Source: Fimbriimonadia bacterium (GTDB lineage: Bacteria; Armatimonadota; Fimbriimonadia; Fimbriimonadales; JABRVX01). Taken from it: a DNA stretch of 64,000 bases. Made by a program: the position numbers. The DNA is taken from assembly GCA_041483895.1 (NCBI GenBank), contig JBGPGO010000003.1, positions 202,792 to 266,791 on the forward strand, read 5' to 3'. Shown piece after piece: positions 54,001 through 60,000 of the stretch (positions within the stretch are counted from its first letter, which is position 1; each line of letters opens with the position of its first letter).

Positions 54001-57000
54001 GTTGAACCCAATGGCAAACTCGCCAAAATACCGGGCACCTTCGTCGCTGTCCAAGATGCTGTTGATCTTCTCCGTATTATTTGCAGTGGCCTCAACAATC
54101 TTCCCATCCCGCACCTCGAAGCGCACCGAAGAAAACACGGTGCCCTGGTTCAGGTTCTCCGTGTTGTAGGAGATCACCCCGTTCATCGATTCCCGGACCG
54201 GAGCGGTGAAGATCTCCCCATCCGGAATGTTGTACTCGCCCGTGCAGGGGATGACCGGAATGTCCTTGATGCTGAACGCCAGGTCCGTCCCCGGTCCCAC
54301 GAGCCGCACCCGATCCGTTCGAGCCATCCGTTCCCGCAGCGGCTCCACGGCCTCCTCCATCTTTGCGTAATCCGCCGTGCAGACCCGGAAGTAGAAGTCC
54401 TCGAACGCCTCCGTGCTCATCCCGGCCTGCTGCGCCATGCTGGACGACGGCCAGCGCAGCACGCACCACTTGGTCTTCGGCACGCGGGTCTTGAAATGCA
54501 CCGGATCGGCATAGTTTCGGCCCCACATTTTTACCTGCTCGTCCGGCACATCCGAGTTTTCCGCGTAGTTGAAGCCACCCCGAACTCCGATATAGGCCTG
54601 CATCTGCTCCATCCGGGCCTTATCCAGCAACCCCATCGCCGCCGAGCTTTCCTCCGTGATGGACCGCAGGACCTCGCGCTGAACCAGATTGTGGTAGGTG
54701 GCGACAAAAGGGTTGGCCCCGACCTTTTTGGCCGCCCGCATCAACTCGGCCGTGCATTCCGCCGGAATATCAAAGGCTTCTATCAGTATGTTATCCCCTG
54801 GCTTCAGTTTTGTGCTGTGAGTTACAAGCAGTTCGGCCAGCCTGGCCATTCTAGGGTCTTTCAAGTTCCACTCTCCTTTGCTCCCAATTGTACCGGTGGC
54901 GGTTGAGTCCCCTTGCGGCAGAACTACGGTGATGGGTTTGATCCTGATGTCATTGATGTCTCCCACGCACCAGTGCCAGTTTGTGGATCGAGCCTGATCA
55001 AACAGTCTAGCTTTTCGGCGTCCTGGGTCGACAGGTGGCCGATGATCACTGTCGGCAGGCGGACAGGATCGTCCGCCGGGATGCCGACATGGAGGTTGCG
55101 GTAGATGGCACGGTTCGTTTACAACGCCGTGGATCCGCAGGGTCGTACTGTCCGCGGAACCATGGATGCAGACAACGAGGAGTTCGTCCTAGCAAAACTG
55201 CATGAGCAGCAGATGCACGTGACGAACGTAAAGCAGGCACGTGCCGCCTCGGAAGGCAAACGTGGTTTTGGCCCGGCCAAGAAGATAAAGCTCCAGTCGC
55301 TTGTCGTCTTTTCTCGCCAGTTCGCCACGATGATCGACGCGGGTATCCCAATTCTCCGCTGCCTCGACATTCTCCATGGCCAGACAAAGGACCAGATCCT
55401 AAAAGAGACGCTGAACCTGGTTCGCGGAGATGTCAAGGGCGGTATGTCGCTCAACGAAGCGATGGCGAAGCATCCCAGAGTTTTCAGCAAGCTGTACGTC
55501 AACATGATCCGCGCGGCCGAAATCGGCGGTATCTTGGACCTCATCCTGGACCGGCTCTCCCACTTTCTCGAATCGGAAATGGAGATCCGCGGCAAGATCA
55601 AGTCCGCCATGATGTACCCGACGATGGTGTTGTGCGCTTCGTTCTGCATGCTGTTCGCCCTCTTCACGTTCGTCCTCCCGAAATTCAAGGACATCTTCCT
55701 TGGGATGGATGTGGAGCTGCCTGCGATCACGGCGGCCCTGTTCACTATCGGCGACATCTTCCAGGCCTATTGGTGGGCGATTCTGGGAACGATAGCCGGC
55801 GCCTTTTTCGGAATCAAGAGCTACGGGAAGACGAAGAAGGGCCGCTATCACATGGACTACCTGAAACTCCGTGCGCCGATCATTGGCGATCTGAGTCTCA
55901 AGCTCTCGGTGGCACGGTTCTCCCGGACGTTTGGAACGCTCATCGGCAGCGGCGTCCCCATGATGCGGTGCCTGGAAATCACATCGGAAACGAGCGGCAA
56001 CACGGTGTTGGCCGGGGCAATCGATGCGGCAAGAGCGGCGATCCGAGAAGGAAAGCAGCTCAGTCATCCGTTGGCGGCAAGCGGTCTGTTCCCCACGATG
56101 GTAACGCAGATGATCGACATCGGGGAAGAGACCGGTCGGCTCAACGAAATGCTTGTAAAAGTGTCCGACTTCTATGACGCTGAGGTTTCCCAGACGGTCA
56201 AAGGATTGACCTCGATGATAGAACCTCTCCTCATAGTTTTCATGGGCCTGATCGTCGGCTTCATCGCGATCTCGGTCATGACTCCCATCTTCAAGCTGGT
56301 CAACTCAGTCAAGTAAGACGCAAGGGAAAGGACTGAATTGTGTCTGAATATGTAAGTAAGAGGCATTCACCAGAAGAGCTGGTGGCGGAATACTCGGCAA
56401 ACAAGCGCGCTGATCTGCGGGATGTAATCGTTGCGCACTATGCATCCATGGTGGAGCGGATCGCCCGCAGATTCTCGGGCTCATCGGAGCAGCAAGACGA
56501 TTTGGCACAGGTCGGTTTCATAGGGCTGCTCAATGCGCTGGAGCTCTATGATCCGATGAAGGGTGTCAAGTTCTCGACCTACGCCACGCACCTGGTGGCC
56601 GGGGAGATCAAGCACCACCTCCGCGACAAGAGCAAGATCATCAAAGAGCCCGCGTGGCTCCAAGAGTTGAATCAGCGCATCGATCGTGTCATCCAGGCTT
56701 TATCACAAGAGCTCGGCCGGCAGCCCACGCCGGCCGAGATCGGCGCCAACATGCACATGACCGAGGAGTCGGTGACGGAAGTGCTGATGACGCGCGATAT
56801 CTTCCGGGTGATCTCGCTCGATGGCGTGACGGAAGATGAGGATTCGGACAATCCGTACGATCTGGACAAACTGGAGGCGAAAGAGGAAGCGACCTTCCAC
56901 CTGCCGATTGAAGACAAGATGATGCTGGAAACCGCTGTGATCCAACTCAAGGAGATCGAGCGCAAAGTCATCAATCTGTTCTTCTATGAGAGCCTCAATC

Positions 57001-60000
57001 AGACCGAGATCGCCCACGAGCTGCAGATTTCCTGCAACTACGTGTCGCATATTCTGCGGCACTCCATGCAGAAGCTGCGCAAGATTCTAGTGACGGAAGA
57101 CCTGAAAGAGCGGCAGTTGAGAACCCGTCAGCACGTCGCGGAGAAGTCGGATGTGATCGACGAGCAGACGGGCCTGTTTGGGCCGGACTATTTCCAATCG
57201 CGTGTATCCGAAGAGCTACAGCGGGCCTCGCTCAACGATAACCAGGTGGCTGTTGTGGTGGTCCAGTTCGCCGGGCTGGAGCGTCTGCGGAGCTTCTATG
57301 GGGACATGACTGTTGGCGAGTTTATGTCGCAGGCCGCCGCCGCCATCCGGGGCGCGGTGCGGAAGATGGACATTCTTTGCCGCGCTGGGGAGTACGCGTT
57401 CGGGCTTATCTTCCCCTATGTGGAGACGCTGCGCGGGGAGATCGATACGGAGATTTCCGGGATGCTCCACGAATGGATCGGAAGGCTTTTCTCCGCCCAC
57501 AACGAGGTGTCTATCACAGTGGGCCGGGCCGACTCCCCGGACGATGGCCACGCGGCGCGCGAGCTGCTGCACAAGGCATGGAATCCAGCCCCAGCCCTCC
57601 GCCAAGCGGCCTAAGACTCATGATCCCCTCCTCCGCTTGCGGGGGAGGGTTAGGGTGGGGGTTGCTTCGGTTTCCGTGTTGCGGTCTTTGGAGTCAATGT
57701 GAGATCTGGTATTGGCGGACGAGGACCCCAACACATCGAGGCGTCGCCGCAGTGTCCTCAAATCCCCTCCTCCGCTTGCGGGGGAGGGTGAGGGTGGGGG
57801 CTGATGTGCCGGGGTCCTCGCATTGCATCAACCTTTCTCCCACGAATCCCTACGACCCCGGCACTTCGGGAGTTAGATGTAACCAATGCCGGCTGGAAGC
57901 CAGCGTTACGGGTATATCCGGTATCCTGTGAATAATGATCAGCCTCGTCACAATCCTACTCCTTGCCCAAACACAATCGCCTGACCCTATGCGCATGCAG
58001 ATCGGCGATCCGTCCCGGAAATCGCTACAGCTCAAAGTCGAGCCAGGCGGCATCTATTCCGACCACACCGGCGGGAAGACCACCATCGCCGACATCGTCT
58101 CGGCGGCAAATGGCGTGCAGTTTCTTTTTATCGGCGAGAACCACGACAACCCGGAACACCATCAGTTCCAGGCGGACGTGATTGATGCATTAGTGAAATC
58201 AGGCCGCAACGTGATCGTCGGAATGGAGATGTTCCAGCGACGGAATCAGACCGCCCTCTTCCGTTGGACGCTCAACAAAACGTCCCAGGACGAGTTCATC
58301 ACTGAATCGGATTGGAAGAACGTGTGGGGCTTCGACTACGGCCTGTACAAGCCGATCTTTGACGTGGTGCGCGCAAACCGCCTGCCGCTCGTTGGCCTCA
58401 ACATCCCGCGCGACTGGGTCCGCAAAGTCAGCAAGGACGGCGCGAAGGCCCTGACCGCCGAGGACCGAGGCTCGATGCCGGAGCTGGACCTGACCAACTT
58501 GGAGCACCGCGCCCTGATCAAGGCGATGATTGGCGACATGCCCGGCCACGCGGTCGGCGATGGCACCTTCGCGGGGCAAATCCTGTGGGACACCGCGATG
58601 GCCGACACGGCGCTGACCTATTGGGAGCGGATGCCGCGCTCGCCGCAGTGGATCTTCGTCGTCCTGGCCGGCAGCGGGCACATTATGTACGACCTGGGAA
58701 TCCCCTACCGCCTGGGGCAGCGCGCGTCCTATAAAAGGGAGAGCATCGTTTGCCTGGAAGGTCCGGAAACCGTGTCTCGCTCCATCGGCGATTTTGTCTA
58801 CTGCACTAAGACGTATACCCGTCCGGATGAGCCTCAAACCACGCCCAAGCGTGGGAAATGATGGTCTCCAGGTCCGGGTAGCGGGGTGACCAGCCTAGCT
58901 CCTTGCGAATCTTGTCCGAGCTGGCAACGAGCCGTGCGGGATCGCCAGCGCGGCGCGGCGCGGCAACCGACGGAATCGGCCGTCCAACCACCTTCTCGCA
59001 CGTCTCGATCACCTGCTTCACGCTGAACCCTTCGCCGTTGCCCAAATTGTACGCAGAGGTCGTCGGCCCCGATCGCAGGGCGTTGAGGGCCCGCAGGTGG
59101 GCGTCCGCCAAGTCCACCACATGGATGTAGTCACGGATGCAAGTGCCGTCCGGCGTGTCCCAATCGGTGCCAAAAACCTTCGTCGTCTCCCGCTTGCCCA
59201 GCGCGGTCTGCAAAATGACTGGGATGATGTGCTGCTCCGGCTCGTGGTCCTCTCCCAACTCGCCGTCCGGGTCCGCGCCCGCCGCGTTGAAATATCGCAG
59301 CGAAATCGATCGGATGCCGTACGCCCCGTAATACCATTTGAGCATCCGCTCCATCACGAGCTTGGTCTCACCGTACGGATTTGTCGGGAACTGGATGTGG
59401 TCTTCCGGGATCGGGATCTGGGTCGGCTCGCCGTAGGTGGCTGCGGACGAGGAGAAAATCATCTGTTTCACGCCCGCCGCCCGCATTGCCTCCAGCAGGT
59501 TGAAACAGCCATTCACATTGTTGTCGTAGTACTTGGCGGGGTTTTCGACCGAATCGCCGACGGAGGCATAGGCGGCAAAGTGCATGACGCATTCGATTTC
59601 CGTCTCTTTGAAAAGCCGGTCCAGCATCCCCCGGTCGCGCAGGTCGCCCTGGACCAAATCAGCGCCCTTGACCGCCTGCCGATGGCCCAGCTCCAGGTTG
59701 TCCAGCACCAACGGCTTTTCGCCGTTCTGGAGCAAATACTTGACCATGTGCGAGCCGATATATCCCGCCCCACCGATTACCAAGATCATCTGTGCGACCC
59801 CCTCTTCATCGATCTTACCTACCCAGCTATTATCGGCAGGGACCGGGAACGGAACGGCGAACAAAGACACGGCGTAACCGGCGGGCGTGTGTGCCGTCGA
59901 ACGATATGCAGCTACGGAGGGATGGATGACTCGAATTGCCCGGATTGGGCTCCTGGTGGCGTTTGCTTGCTCGGCCTGCCACGCACAGACCTACCAAAAC

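What a model noticed while it worked through the whole genome (the two positions that open the first line are those of the whole stretch)
56340..57614. Conserved sigma-70 factor fused to a degenerate GGDEF domain with intact I-site, linked to pilC: candidate c-di-GMP-sens [...]
g00936 (424 aa) is a complete group-3-like sigma factor (regions 2, 3, 4) with a C-terminal GGDEF domain whose catalytic GG(D/E)EF motif is lost (AGEYAF here; GESGF, GKTGF in relatives) while the RxxD inhibitory (I-) site five residues upstream is kept. The fusion is single-copy and conserved over many families of Armatimonadota and lies directly after pilC, suggesting a sigma factor that binds c-di-GMP itself.
Evidence so far: Pfam: Sigma70_r2 4.5e-19, r3 1.3e-10, r4 1.3e-10, GGDEF 2.2e-14 (res. 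273-413). All 120 best database homologues (410-453 aa) carry PF00990 plus sigma regions; sources call them 'sigma-B factor'/'sigma-70 family'. 153 of 401 Armatimonadota genomes have a match at E<=1e-75, one each in the genome table, most spanning residues ~10-413. Alignment of 20: R-x-x-D followed after 5 residues by a degenerate motif (GESGF, GKTGF, GEYAF, GDCEF ...) in all 20, none with canonical GG(D/E)EF. T2SSF (pilC) within 2 genes of a GGDEF gene in >=138 of 227 Fimbriimonadales. Two full-text searches found no paper on a sigma-GGDEF fusion.
(Added by a program. Inside this text positions count along the whole contig: contig position 202,792 is position 1 of the stretch shown here. "Call 12" and the like, gene names such as g00115 and contig names such as C1 are that model's own, and its searches are not shown. 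The text may have been shortened before it was handed on; [...] marks where a part breaks off. The agent that wrote the report below was given it as the finding of a first reader that could run no searches.)

Follow-up and report, generated by a model that had tools for sequence, protein, structure and literature searches.

The report
Sigma factor fused to c-di-GMP sensor
The gene after pilC encodes a complete RNA polymerase sigma factor fused to an enzymatically dead GGDEF domain that keeps its cyclic-di-GMP binding motif, a design conserved across Armatimonadota beside type IV pilus genes that may let the messenger act directly on a sigma factor, although binding has never been measured.

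Summary
ORF 56340-57614 (+, 424 aa) has sigma-70 regions 2, 3 and 4 followed by a GGDEF-fold domain. The cyclase site is gone: GEYAF replaces GGEEF and the metal and guanine residues are substituted. None of 120 close and none of 65 distant relatives has GG[DE]EF. The I-site RxxD is the only RxxD in the protein. It is kept in 61-63 of 65 distant relatives, among the best-conserved positions of the domain.

The fusion spans many Armatimonadota families. It usually ends a pilB-pilT-pilC operon. Five related genomes without it also lack the pilC orthologue. The genome has five intact GGDEF genes, one EAL and four PilZ.

My best reading (about 0.55) is a sigma factor gated by c-di-GMP through its own receptor domain. 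Binding, direction and regulon are inferred.

One caveat is new: the window's protein has E371 where 57 of 65 relatives keep the third I-site arginine.

I also found a flagellar-class promoter-like element, GCCGA(C/T)AAT, upstream of the operon. Eight full-text searches found no paper on the fusion.

The parts
55038..55046 (+). GCCGATGAT, the window's weak copy (7 of 9) of the conserved GCCGACAAT element. It ends 58 nt upstream of the pilC ATG and is a candidate -10 element of a flagellar-class (FliA/WhiG-type) promoter.
   Evidence: 14 of 26 related loci match GCCGACAAT at 8/9 or better in the 200 nt before pilC, against a shuffle mean of 0.40 and maximum of 3 in 1000. The consensus -35 TAAA / -10 GCCGATAA is taken from PMC8325347, section 14.
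55105..56316 (+). pilC, the type IV pilus platform protein (403 aa), first gene of the two-gene unit
   Evidence: Pfam T2SSF x2, 9e-62. NCBIfam PilC 414 bits, below the equivalog cut-off of 700; GspF 390.6. 58-73% identical to the pilC that precedes the fused sigma gene in other genomes.
56340..57614 (+). Sigma-GGDEF fusion gene (424 aa, GTG start, stop included)
56430..56636 (+). Sigma region 2 (res. 31-99)
   Evidence: Pfam PF04542, 1.6e-18. Invariant D54, G62, T80, A82, H92, R95, D96 in 113 aligned relatives. Structural match to sigma domain 2, Z 12.9.
56664..56834 (+). Sigma region 3 (res. 109-165), followed by a low-confidence linker (res. 157-174)
   Evidence: Pfam PF04539, 2.3e-12. pLDDT below 50 at res. 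157-174.
56943..57083 (+). Sigma region 4 (res. 202-248), helix-turn-helix for the -35 element
   Evidence: Pfam PF04545, 3e-13. Match to SigF region 4 (8jzt_A), Z 11.7, rmsd 0.7 over 57 residues.
57084..57143 (+). Charged helical linker (res. 249-268), continuous with the last helix of region 4
   Evidence: AF2 predicts one helix over res. 232-268. Helix plus GGDEF aligns with the stalk/coiled-coil plus GGDEF of DgcB (6ttr_A), GCN4-WspR (3i5c_A) and SiaD (7e6g_B).
57156..57578 (+). Degenerate GGDEF domain (res. 273-413), truncated at the C-terminal end of the profile
   Evidence: Pfam PF00990, 2e-14, profile positions 3-147 of 161. Fold match to 4urs_A: Z 18.9, rmsd 3.1 A, 152 residues. Match to PleD 1w25_A: Z 16.8.
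57201..57224 (+). Family-specific conserved helix face R288-x2-E291-E292-x2-R295. R295 aligns with PleD residue 313.
   Evidence: In 65 distant relatives: R295 in 64, E292 in 63, R288 in 56, E291 in 50. The offset to PleD numbering is +18.
57360..57371 (+). I-site R341-K-M-D344 (aligns with PleD 359-362)
   Evidence: Alignment to solved cyclases. It is the only RxxD in the protein. R in 61 of 65 and D in 63 of 65 distant relatives. R and D invariant in the 120 closest homologues.
57387..57401 (+). G350-E-Y-A-F354 in place of the catalytic GG(D/E)EF
   Evidence: 0 of 120 and 0 of 65 relatives have GG[DE]EF
57450..57452 (+). E371, where relatives have the arginine of the 'AERI' helix (third primary I-site residue, PleD R390 by motif)
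   Evidence: R in 116 of 120 close and 57 of 65 distant relatives. The exceptions among the 120 are P0001, P0002 and P0003 (E) and P0005 (L).

Best explanation
What it is. The gene encodes a group-3 (SigB/SigF-like) sigma factor. The last helix of its region 4 continues as a charged helix of about 20 residues into a C-terminal GGDEF-fold domain. That domain cannot make c-di-GMP, but it keeps the allosteric inhibitory site (I-site).

Most likely role. The domain is a built-in c-di-GMP receptor that gates the sigma factor, a sigma and its anti-sigma-like switch in one polypeptide.

Proposed mechanism (inferred). When c-di-GMP is high, an intercalated c-di-GMP dimer binds at R341/D344, and in most relatives also at R371. 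It cross-links this domain to a second copy through the conserved R295 helix face, as in product-inhibited PleD and WspR, or clamps it onto the sigma body. The sigma factor is then kept off core RNA polymerase. When c-di-GMP falls, the sigma factor is free.

Biological setting. The gene is the last gene of the type IV pilus motor operon (pilB-pilT-pilC-sigma; here pilC-sigma). It probably couples a pilus or cell-surface regulon to c-di-GMP. The operon itself appears to be driven by a flagellar-class promoter.

Shown here: the architecture, the dead active site, the conservation pattern, the synteny, and a c-di-GMP toolkit in the genome. Inferred: ligand binding, the direction of the switch, dimerisation, and the regulon.
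For: 1. Complete sigma plus GGDEF fold. Pfam; AF2 mean pLDDT 87.5; GGDEF fold Z 18.9 and sigma domain matches.

2. Dead cyclase. GEYAF replaces GGEEF. Q309, R317 and G326 sit where the solved cyclase in the printed alignment has D, N and D. The domain ends before the last 14 profile positions. 0 of 120 and 0 of 65 relatives have GG[DE]EF.

3. Selection on the I-site. In 65 representatives of 50%-identity clusters, D344 is kept in 63, R341 in 61 and R371 in 57. The metal-site position is D in only 4 of 65, and the GGDEF positions vary freely. RKMD is the only RxxD in 424 residues.

4. R295 (64 of 65) aligns with PleD residue 313. From recall, that residue is the secondary I-site arginine that lets c-di-GMP cross-link two GGDEF domains. 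Among this genome's own GGDEF paralogues, one of the three I could align by eye has R there, so it is not a general fold requirement.

5. The organism can make, break and read c-di-GMP. It has five other GGDEF genes with GGEEF, GGDEF or GGEQF, one EAL and four PilZ.

6. No small RsbW-type anti-sigma kinase was found. All five HATPase_c_2 matches are weak and lie in frames of 408-602 aa. There is one STAS protein.

7. Pilus link. pilC is directly upstream in 27 of 29 close loci. In 18 loci from other families, pilC is co-directional and adjacent in 11, a divergent pilT-pilC pair is adjacent in 1, and the full pilB-pilT-pilC-sigma order occurs in 7. The PilB proteins there carry MshEN domains. 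Five genomes of genus g2 without the fusion have a best PilC match of only 42-43% identity, against 61-73% where the fusion is present.

8. Precedent. c-di-GMP controls a sigma factor through the anti-sigma RsiG, and in Rubrobacter that switch controls type IV pili (PMC7005675 abstract; PMC8325347 abstract and section 14).
Against: No binding was measured or modelled. The motif argument is the only basis.

The window's own protein has E371 in place of the third I-site arginine. Three of its four closest relatives also lack it: P0002 and P0003 have E, P0005 has L, and P0004 keeps R.

AF2 gave pTM 0.46. No confident packing of the GGDEF domain against the sigma body was reported, and I had no coordinates to test whether the conserved residues form one surface.

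The linker is charged, not an obvious coiled coil.

The fusion is not universal. 59 of 401 genomes gave no match to the region 4 plus GGDEF query, and whole families gave only weak matches, for example f7, f34, f26 and f35 at E 1e-4 to 1e-12.

I could not derive a regulon or promoter specific to this sigma. A separate true FliA/WhiG sigma is present in 55 of 61 genomes of the order. It could explain the promoter-like element upstream of the operon.
Confidence: 0.55

Rival explanations
1. The dead GGDEF domain is a ligand-independent module. It would serve for dimerisation, docking or autoinhibition, binding the sigma body, another protein of the pilus machinery or an active cyclase. The conserved R341/D344/R371/R295 residues would then serve protein contacts rather than c-di-GMP.
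For: Besides RxxD, the best-conserved residues form a family-specific helix face (R288, E291, E292, R295) that is not part of the classical primary I-site. The helix plus GGDEF arrangement resembles the stalk-GGDEF dimers of cyclases (6ttr_A, 3i5c_A, 7e6g_B). The window's protein tolerates E at 371. Sigma factors with fused C-terminal regulatory domains that work without small ligands exist (ECF41/42-type; recalled, not checked here).
Against: RxxD at exactly the I-site position is the one GGDEF feature known to bind c-di-GMP. It survives at 61-63 of 65 while the rest of the nucleotide-handling residues drift. The genome has a full c-di-GMP toolkit.
Confidence: 0.22
2. The family is a c-di-GMP receptor, but in the window's genus-level clade the receptor is weakened or lost (E371). 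This particular sigma factor would then be largely uncoupled from c-di-GMP, or would respond only at higher levels.
For: R371 is R in 116 of 120 close and 57 of 65 distant relatives. It is E in P0001, P0002 and P0003 and L in P0005 and P0126. From recall, the equivalent PleD R390 contributes to I-site binding.
Against: R341, D344, R348, R295 and E292 remain intact in the window's protein. A nearby R365 could compensate (untested).
Confidence: 0.15
3. The domain binds a different nucleotide, such as GTP, (p)ppGpp or another cyclic dinucleotide, as some degenerate GGDEF domains do.
For: Degenerate GGDEF domains that bind GTP at the former active site are known (recalled).
Against: The positions that hold the metal and the guanine of GTP are substituted (Q309, R317, G326). 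The C-terminal helix of the profile, which from recall carries the phosphate-binding K and R, is missing. These positions are not conserved among relatives.
Confidence: 0.06
4. It is still a diguanylate cyclase, and the sigma factor makes c-di-GMP locally.
For: It matches Pfam GGDEF above the cut-off.
Against: GEYAF replaces GGEEF. 0 of 185 relatives examined have GG[DE]EF. The metal and substrate residues are lost.
Confidence: 0.01

Closest known systems
RsiG-(c-di-GMP)2-sigma WhiG switch of Streptomyces and Rubrobacter (PMC7005675, abstract seen; PMC8325347, abstract and section 14 read; PDB 6pfv/6pfj titles)
   Same: c-di-GMP decides whether a group-3 sigma factor is available. In Rubrobacter the switch controls type IV pilus genes through flagellar-class promoters (TAAA / GCCGATAA). 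A similar element stands before the pil-sigma operon here.
   Different: There the ligand is bound by a separate anti-sigma coiled coil with the motif E(X)3S(X)2R(X)3Q(X)3D. That motif is absent here: 0 of 65 family members and not in the window's protein. Here the putative receptor is a GGDEF-fold domain fused to the sigma factor itself, and the sigma is SigB/F-like. It scores 127 bits on the FliA/WhiG model against a cut-off of 189.6, and is 28% identical to this genome's own FliA.
Receptor-type degenerate GGDEF proteins that bind c-di-GMP at the I-site: PopA and PelD (recalled); GdpX6 (PMC7996900) and CbrR (PMC8779298), search listing and abstracts only
   Same: The catalytic motif is lost while RxxD is kept five residues upstream, in a GGDEF fold.
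   Different: Those are response regulators, membrane proteins or single-domain proteins. None is fused to a sigma factor. Binding is shown for them and not for this protein.
I-site product inhibition of PleD and WspR (PDB 1w25 'PleD in complex with c-diGMP', 3i5c; residue roles recalled)
   Same: R341/D344 align with PleD 359/362 and R295 with PleD 313. The proposed cross-linking of two GGDEF domains by intercalated c-di-GMP copies that mechanism.
   Different: In PleD and WspR the cross-link silences a cyclase. Here it would silence, or otherwise gate, a sigma factor. The window's protein lacks the R390 equivalent.
Cyanobacterial group-3 sigma factor SigF (PMC7690835, passages read)
   Same: It is a SigB/F-type sigma factor that directly controls the major pilin operon pilA1-pilA2 and motility. 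The NCBIfam SigF model PRK07408 is the second-best match here (163 bits).
   Different: SigF has no fused domain, and no c-di-GMP input on the sigma itself is described in the passages I read.
Sigma factors with fused C-terminal regulatory extensions
   Same: A regulatory domain in cis takes the place of a separate anti-sigma factor.
   Different: Those are ECF (group 4) sigmas with SnoaL-like or TPR extensions, not a group-3 sigma with a second-messenger receptor fold.

Membership tests
Sigma-70 family, group 3 | Regions 2, 3 and 4 present and conserved | tested here: met
   Pfam r2, r3 and r4 are all above their cut-offs. The best PDB sequence match is the S. aureus sigma B chain 8x6g_H, 6.8e-33. 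Region 2 residues are invariant in 113 relatives.
SigB/SigF/SigG subfamily (NCBIfam TIGR02980) | Score at or above the curated cut-off of 234.35 bits | tested here: not met
   193.3 bits. It is the best-scoring model but falls below the cut-off. So the protein is SigB/F-like, not a curated member.
FliA/WhiG subfamily (NCBIfam TIGR02479) | Score at or above the curated cut-off of 189.6 bits | tested here: not met
   127.1 bits. The genome's true FliA/WhiG (C1:362163-362945) scores 232.5 and is 28% identical to this protein.
GGDEF domain (PF00990) | Profile match and GGDEF fold | tested here: met
   54.1 bits against a cut-off of 23.8. VIA-align Z 18.9, rmsd 3.1 A, 152 residues to 4urs_A; Z 16.8 to PleD 1w25_A.
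Diguanylate cyclase | GG(D/E)EF catalytic motif | tested here: not met
   GEYAF. 0 of 120 and 0 of 65 relatives have GG[DE]EF.
Diguanylate cyclase | Metal-binding Asp and guanine-binding Asn/Asp of the substrate site | tested here: not met
   Q309, R317 and G326 stand at the positions of D, N and D of the aligned cyclase. The positions vary among relatives.
I-site c-di-GMP receptor (degenerate GGDEF type) | RxxD five residues before the (former) GGDEF motif | tested here: met
   R341-K-M-D344, then five residues, then G350. Kept in 119 of 120 close relatives and 61-63 of 65 distant ones.
I-site c-di-GMP receptor (degenerate GGDEF type) | Third primary-site arginine on the following helix (PleD R390 equivalent; role recalled) | tested here: not met
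   E371 in the window's protein. R in 116 of 120 and 57 of 65 relatives.
I-site c-di-GMP receptor (degenerate GGDEF type) | Measured, specific binding of c-di-GMP | not testable with these tools
   No assay was possible, and the co-folding job returned no verdict (see Tried and rejected).
RsiG-type anti-sigma switch | E(X)3S(X)2R(X)3Q(X)3D c-di-GMP motif on a coiled coil | tested here: not met
   A regex search found none in the protein and none in 65 family members.

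The most novel reading that the evidence does not exclude
This would be the first sigma factor that is itself a second-messenger receptor. It is a one-polypeptide sigma/anti-sigma switch, ancestral to much of the phylum Armatimonadota. c-di-GMP bound at the I-site of a fused, dead GGDEF domain dimerises or clamps the sigma factor and so gates its access to RNA polymerase. 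The switch sits at the end of the type IV pilus motor operon, downstream of a flagellar-class promoter. That would place it in a cascade from FliA to the sigma-GGDEF protein to a surface regulon, read out against c-di-GMP.
Probability: 0.45. Interest if true: 0.8.

Novelty: new variant of a known kind. Interest (0 to 1): 0.7.

Why it matters
c-di-GMP is known to reach transcription through repressors, activators, riboswitches and one anti-sigma factor (RsiG). A sigma factor that carries its own c-di-GMP receptor would be the shortest possible path from the messenger to promoter choice.

It would show a second, independent route by which c-di-GMP took control of a group-3 sigma factor tied to type IV pili.

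It would also give an entry point into gene regulation in Armatimonadota, a phylum with almost no molecular genetics.

The protein is small, soluble by prediction and present in cultured relatives, so the question can be tested directly with binding assays and in-vitro transcription.

Tried and rejected
1. Co-folding of residues 190-424 as two copies with four c-di-GMP gave no verdict (score 0.01, mark 0.42). It is neither support nor evidence against.

2. Foldseek of the whole model against the PDB returned only sigma factors. The GGDEF part was found only with the Foldseek-independent search.

3. Regulon search in the genome.
- The upstream regions of 29 prepilin-like genes showed no shared motif by eye.
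- A scan for GCCGA[CT]AAT gave 111 sites, most apparently inside coding sequence.
- A TAAA-N14-18-GCCGA(T/C)AA scan with up to 2 mismatches gave 128 sites, because upstream coding sequence was not masked.
- Eleven of the better candidates were a mixed set: one N_methyl pilin-like gene, an Ig-domain surface protein, a glycosyltransferase, a methyltransferase, a GAF protein, DUF1015, an oxidoreductase and four without a family. None was a flagellar gene. The search was inconclusive.

4. The upstream regions of the three flagellin genes did not show a clean GCCGATAA either; one has GCCAATAAT. I therefore could not calibrate the FliA promoter of this organism.

5. I tested whether a true FliA is missing where the fusion is present, which would have pointed to the fused sigma as reader of the promoter-like element. 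55 of 61 genomes of the order have a true FliA/WhiG, so the test does not discriminate.

6. RNA evidence: no RNA holder was listed for window 54900-57700.

7. Earlier notes of this scan by place and by sequence returned nothing.

8. Cluster look-up of ten divergent representatives gave organism names for one only (Abditibacteriaceae). I cannot say whether the fusion occurs outside Armatimonadota.

9. One search was an empty script.

Full report
**The observation.** The ORF at 56340-57614 (+) is open for 424 codons from a GTG start. A GGGAAAGGA stretch lies 8-16 nt upstream, and the pilC stop is 23 nt before the start. The reverse strand is full of stops.

Pfam finds Sigma70_r2 (res. 31-99, 1.6e-18), r3 (109-165, 2.3e-12), r4 (202-248, 3e-13) and GGDEF (273-413, 2e-14, profile positions 3-147 of 161). 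All exceed their curated cut-offs.

NCBIfam ranks the SigB/F/G subfamily first (193.3 bits, cut-off 234.35), then cyanobacterial-type SigF (163). FliA/WhiG scores 127.1 against a cut-off of 189.6. So the sigma part is SigB/F-like but not a curated member of any named subfamily. The best solved relative by sequence is the sigma B chain of the S. aureus open complex, 8x6g_H (6.8e-33).

**Structure.** An AlphaFold2 model built on 113 aligned relatives has mean pLDDT 87.5 and pTM 0.46.
- The last helix of region 4 runs on without a break to residue 268.
- It is followed by a beta-alpha-alpha-beta-beta-alpha-beta-alpha unit.
- A Foldseek-independent search matches residues 270-422 to GGDEF domains: 4urs_A with Z 18.9, rmsd 3.1 A, 152 residues; PleD 1w25_A with Z 16.8, model 271-422 on PleD 289-445.
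- It matches residues 8-100 and 194-253 to sigma domains 2 and 4.
- Several matches also include the preceding helix. These are the coiled coil plus GGDEF of DgcB (6ttr_A), GCN4-WspR (3i5c_A) and SiaD (7e6g_B). The linker helix therefore stands where cyclases have their dimerising stalk, although here it is highly charged.

**The GGDEF domain is dead as an enzyme.** The printed alignment to a solved cyclase (6zxm) pairs 'RKMDILCRAGEYAF' with 'RKSDIISRFGGEEF'. It places Q309, R317 and G326 opposite the D, N and D of 'DID...IND...GD'. The domain also stops 14 profile positions early.

The ungapped match to PleD covers domain positions 12-102 on residues 289-379 of the 454-residue chain. The same offset appears in the structural alignment. 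PleD numbering is therefore residue + 18: R341/D344 = 359/362, G350-F354 = 368-372, R295 = 313.

None of the 120 closest homologues and none of 65 distant ones contains GG[DE]EF. The commonest pentapeptides are GESGF, GETGF and GEGGF.

**What is conserved instead.**
- In the 120 closest homologues the invariant positions of the domain are R288, E291, E292, R295, G321, R341, D344, R348 and W379.
- I then took the 150 best representatives of 50%-identity clusters (283 representatives score E <= 1e-30).
- I built a profile of the family's own GGDEF part. It hit 75 of the 151 sequences (those 150 plus the query), including forms that Pfam no longer recognises.
- In the 65 with a near-complete domain: R295 is kept in 64, E292 in 63, D344 in 63, R341 in 61, P400 in 61, R371 in 57, P359 in 57 and R288 in 56.
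- The former metal site is D in 4 of 65, and the GGDEF positions vary freely, with insertions.
- RKMD is the only RxxD in the whole protein.
- R371 lies in an 'AERI'-like motif in most relatives. This is the motif that holds PleD R390 (assignment by motif; recalled).

So the nucleotide-making half decays while the I-site residues stay under selection. That is what a receptor role predicts.

The R288-x2-E291-E292-x2-R295 helix face is family-specific. In an ungapped by-eye alignment of three of this genome's own catalytic GGDEF domains, only one has R at the 295 position and none has E at 292.

**A caveat specific to this window.** The protein here has E371. Among the 120 closest homologues only P0001, P0002 and P0003 (E) and P0005 (L) lack the arginine; P0004, equally close, keeps it. 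The window's lineage may therefore bind c-di-GMP less well than the family at large, or may compensate elsewhere.

**Distribution.**
- All 120 best database homologues (410-453 aa) have the same architecture. Their sources name them sigma-B factor or sigma-70 family, from Armatimonadota, Fimbriimonadales and Fimbriimonadaceae.
- In 401 genomes sampled across the phylum, 400 match as sigma factors. The 150 places listed (E <= 3.1e-76) nearly all extend into the GGDEF part.
- With region 4 plus linker plus GGDEF alone as query, 342 of 401 genomes match at E <= 0.001. All 150 listed places (E <= 9.6e-25) start in region 4 and run at least to query position 116, so they span the junction.
- The listing cap hides the coverage of the weaker matches, so 150 of 401 is a lower bound.
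- Some families give only weak matches (for example f7, f34, f26, f35), and 59 genomes give none.
- A very divergent form with a long N-terminal extension comes from Abditibacteriaceae.
- I could not test whether the fusion occurs outside the phylum.

**Context.** In the window:
- pilC (55105-56316; two T2SSF domains) directly precedes the gene.
- Upstream on the other strand are an M29 peptidase and an ORF6N protein.
- Downstream are a ChaN-type haem-binding protein, an epimerase and a 1030-aa FlgD_ig protein.

In related genomes:
- pilC is directly upstream and co-directional in 27 of 29 close loci.
- In 18 loci chosen from other families, pilC is adjacent and co-directional in 11. A divergent pilT-pilC pair is adjacent in 1. 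No pil gene lies within 6 kb in 6. The full order pilB-pilT-pilC-sigma occurs in 7.
- The PilB proteins there carry MshEN domains.
- Five genomes of genus g2 lack the fusion. Their best PilC match is only 42-43% identical, against 61-73% in genomes with the fusion. The pilC orthologue and the sigma gene are thus missing together. These genomes are kin, so this may reflect a single loss.

**The organism's signalling background.**
- The genome has five other GGDEF genes with GGEEF, GGDEF or GGEQF, three of them with RxxD, one EAL and four PilZ.
- No small RsbW-type kinase was found. The five weak HATPase_c_2 matches lie in frames of 408-602 aa. There is one STAS protein.
- There are 25 sigma region-2 matches. 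They include a true FliA/WhiG at C1:362163-362945 (232.5 bits, cut-off 189.6), which is 28% identical to the fused sigma.
- Flagellar genes are present: FlhA and three flagellins.

**A promoter-like element.**
- In the 200 nt before pilC, 14 of 26 loci of the order match GCCGACAAT at 8 of 9 or better, and 7 match exactly. Two pairs of those loci are near-duplicates. The element mostly lies 38-96 nt before the ATG.
- In 1000 shuffles the mean was 0.40 loci and the maximum 3. The opposite strand of the same stretches gave 1.
- A weak CCTAAAG-like signal lies 16-23 nt further upstream. The -10 columns of that table are inflated, because the sites were chosen by similarity to the consensus.
- In other families, exact or near-exact GCCGATAA(T) elements stand before the first gene of the operon. 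In L039 it is TAAAG-N17-GCCGATAAT before pilC. In L037, L044 and L036 it stands before pilB.
- This is the 'flagellar' consensus (-35 TAAA, -10 GCCGATAA), which in Rubrobacter marks WhiG-dependent type IV pilus promoters (PMC8325347, section 14).
- The window has weaker versions: GCCGATGAT at 55038-55046 and GCCGACAT at 55083-55090.
- Who reads the element is open. 55 of 61 genomes of the order have a true FliA/WhiG (the count includes one unpublished genome, G419). FliA is therefore the simpler candidate, which would place the fused sigma in a cascade below FliA. Autoregulation by the fused sigma is not excluded.

**Mechanism.** I think the most likely mechanism (about 0.55) is a sigma factor gated in cis by c-di-GMP. 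The ligand binds at the I-site. It either cross-links two GGDEF domains through the R295 face, as c-di-GMP does in product-inhibited PleD and WspR, or clamps the domain onto the sigma body. This limits access to core polymerase at high c-di-GMP. The direction, the dimer and the regulon are inferred.

The rivals are:
- a ligand-independent docking or autoinhibitory pseudo-enzyme domain (0.22);
- another nucleotide as ligand (0.06);
- residual cyclase activity (0.01).

**Comparison with what is known.**
- The closest system in function is RsiG-(c-di-GMP)2-WhiG (PMC7005675 abstract; PMC8325347 abstract and section 14). Its receptor is a separate coiled-coil anti-sigma with a motif that is absent here.
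- The closest in fold and motif are receptor-type degenerate GGDEF proteins: PopA and PelD (recalled); GdpX6 and CbrR (abstracts).
- Cyanobacterial SigF, a related group-3 sigma, directly controls the major pilin operon (PMC7690835 passages).

**Literature and earlier notes.**
- Eight full-text searches found no paper describing a sigma-GGDEF fusion, nor did the passages read.
- The Fimbriimonas ginsengisoli genome paper lists sigma factors only by count, including 'one fliA' (PMC4072686 passages). Its supplementary tables were not opened.
- The fusion is visible in Pfam architectures, so it may be listed in a census outside the searched library.
- Seven earlier notes of this scan on other genomes describe the same family with the same reading. 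They are not independent evidence.

**Verdict.** The feature is real. It is a new variant of known kinds: an I-site receptor domain, and a sigma factor with a regulatory domain in cis. It is unreported as far as I could search, and it is directly testable.

Noticed in passing
window 55038-55046 and 55083-55090; L005, L018, L025, L026, L028 (about 50-56 nt, in L028 18 nt, before pilC); L039, L037, L044, L036: A conserved GCCGA(C/T)AAT element stands upstream of the pilC-sigma or pilB-pilT-pilC-sigma operon. It matches the flagellar-class -10 consensus GCCGATAA, with a weak TAAAG-like -35. 14 of 26 loci match at 8/9 or better, against a shuffle mean of 0.40.
   Followed up: partly
window 57625-57661 and 57763-57800 (pattern hits at 57641 and 57780): Two copies of a GC-rich hairpin repeat (CCCCTCCTCCGCTTGCGGGGGAGGGT[TG][AG]GGGTGGGGG) lie just after the sigma gene. 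The 3' pattern occurs 52 times in the 3.95-Mb genome, often at contig ends. It is a REP-like element, possibly acting as a terminator.
   Followed up: partly
G147, G209, G262, G269, G360 (L058-L062): Five genomes of genus g2 lack the fused sigma. They also lack the pilC orthologue: their best PilC match is 42-43% identical, against 61-73% elsewhere.
   Followed up: partly
window 57201-57224 (res. 288-295): The family-specific helix face R-x2-E-E-x2-R is nearly invariant over 65 distant relatives. It is not shared by this genome's catalytic GGDEF paralogues. Its role is unknown; it may be a secondary ligand site or a contact surface.
   Followed up: partly
G000, 30 places (for example C14:53658-62096, C9 cluster): The genome holds 30 ORFs with a prepilin-type N-terminus. 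Most share the nearly identical stretch GFTLIELLVVIAIIAILAAILFPVF, and several lie in tandem arrays.
   Followed up: no
G000:C1:362163-362945 (L049): A true FliA/WhiG sigma factor stands alone between ABC-transporter genes and SurA/MazG-type genes, not in a flagellar cluster. The genome does have FlhA and three flagellins elsewhere.
   Followed up: partly
L037:7386-9317 (-) and L047:8843-9724 (+): In G180 a PAS-SpoIIE (PP2C) phosphatase lies convergent just after the fused sigma gene. In G078 a full GGDEF gene (140 bits) is divergent from pilC.
   Followed up: no
window 53213-53881 (-): An ORF6N-domain protein with a weak phage Rha-like match sits between an M29 peptidase and an unannotated stretch. 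It may be a remnant of a mobile element.
   Followed up: no
P0191, P0199, P0200, P0204, P0222, P0230: These are very divergent members (457-559 aa) with N-terminal extensions of about 40-150 residues. Pfam no longer calls their C-terminal domain GGDEF, but the family profile still finds it at 13-31 bits. P0204's cluster is named from Abditibacteriaceae.
   Followed up: partly
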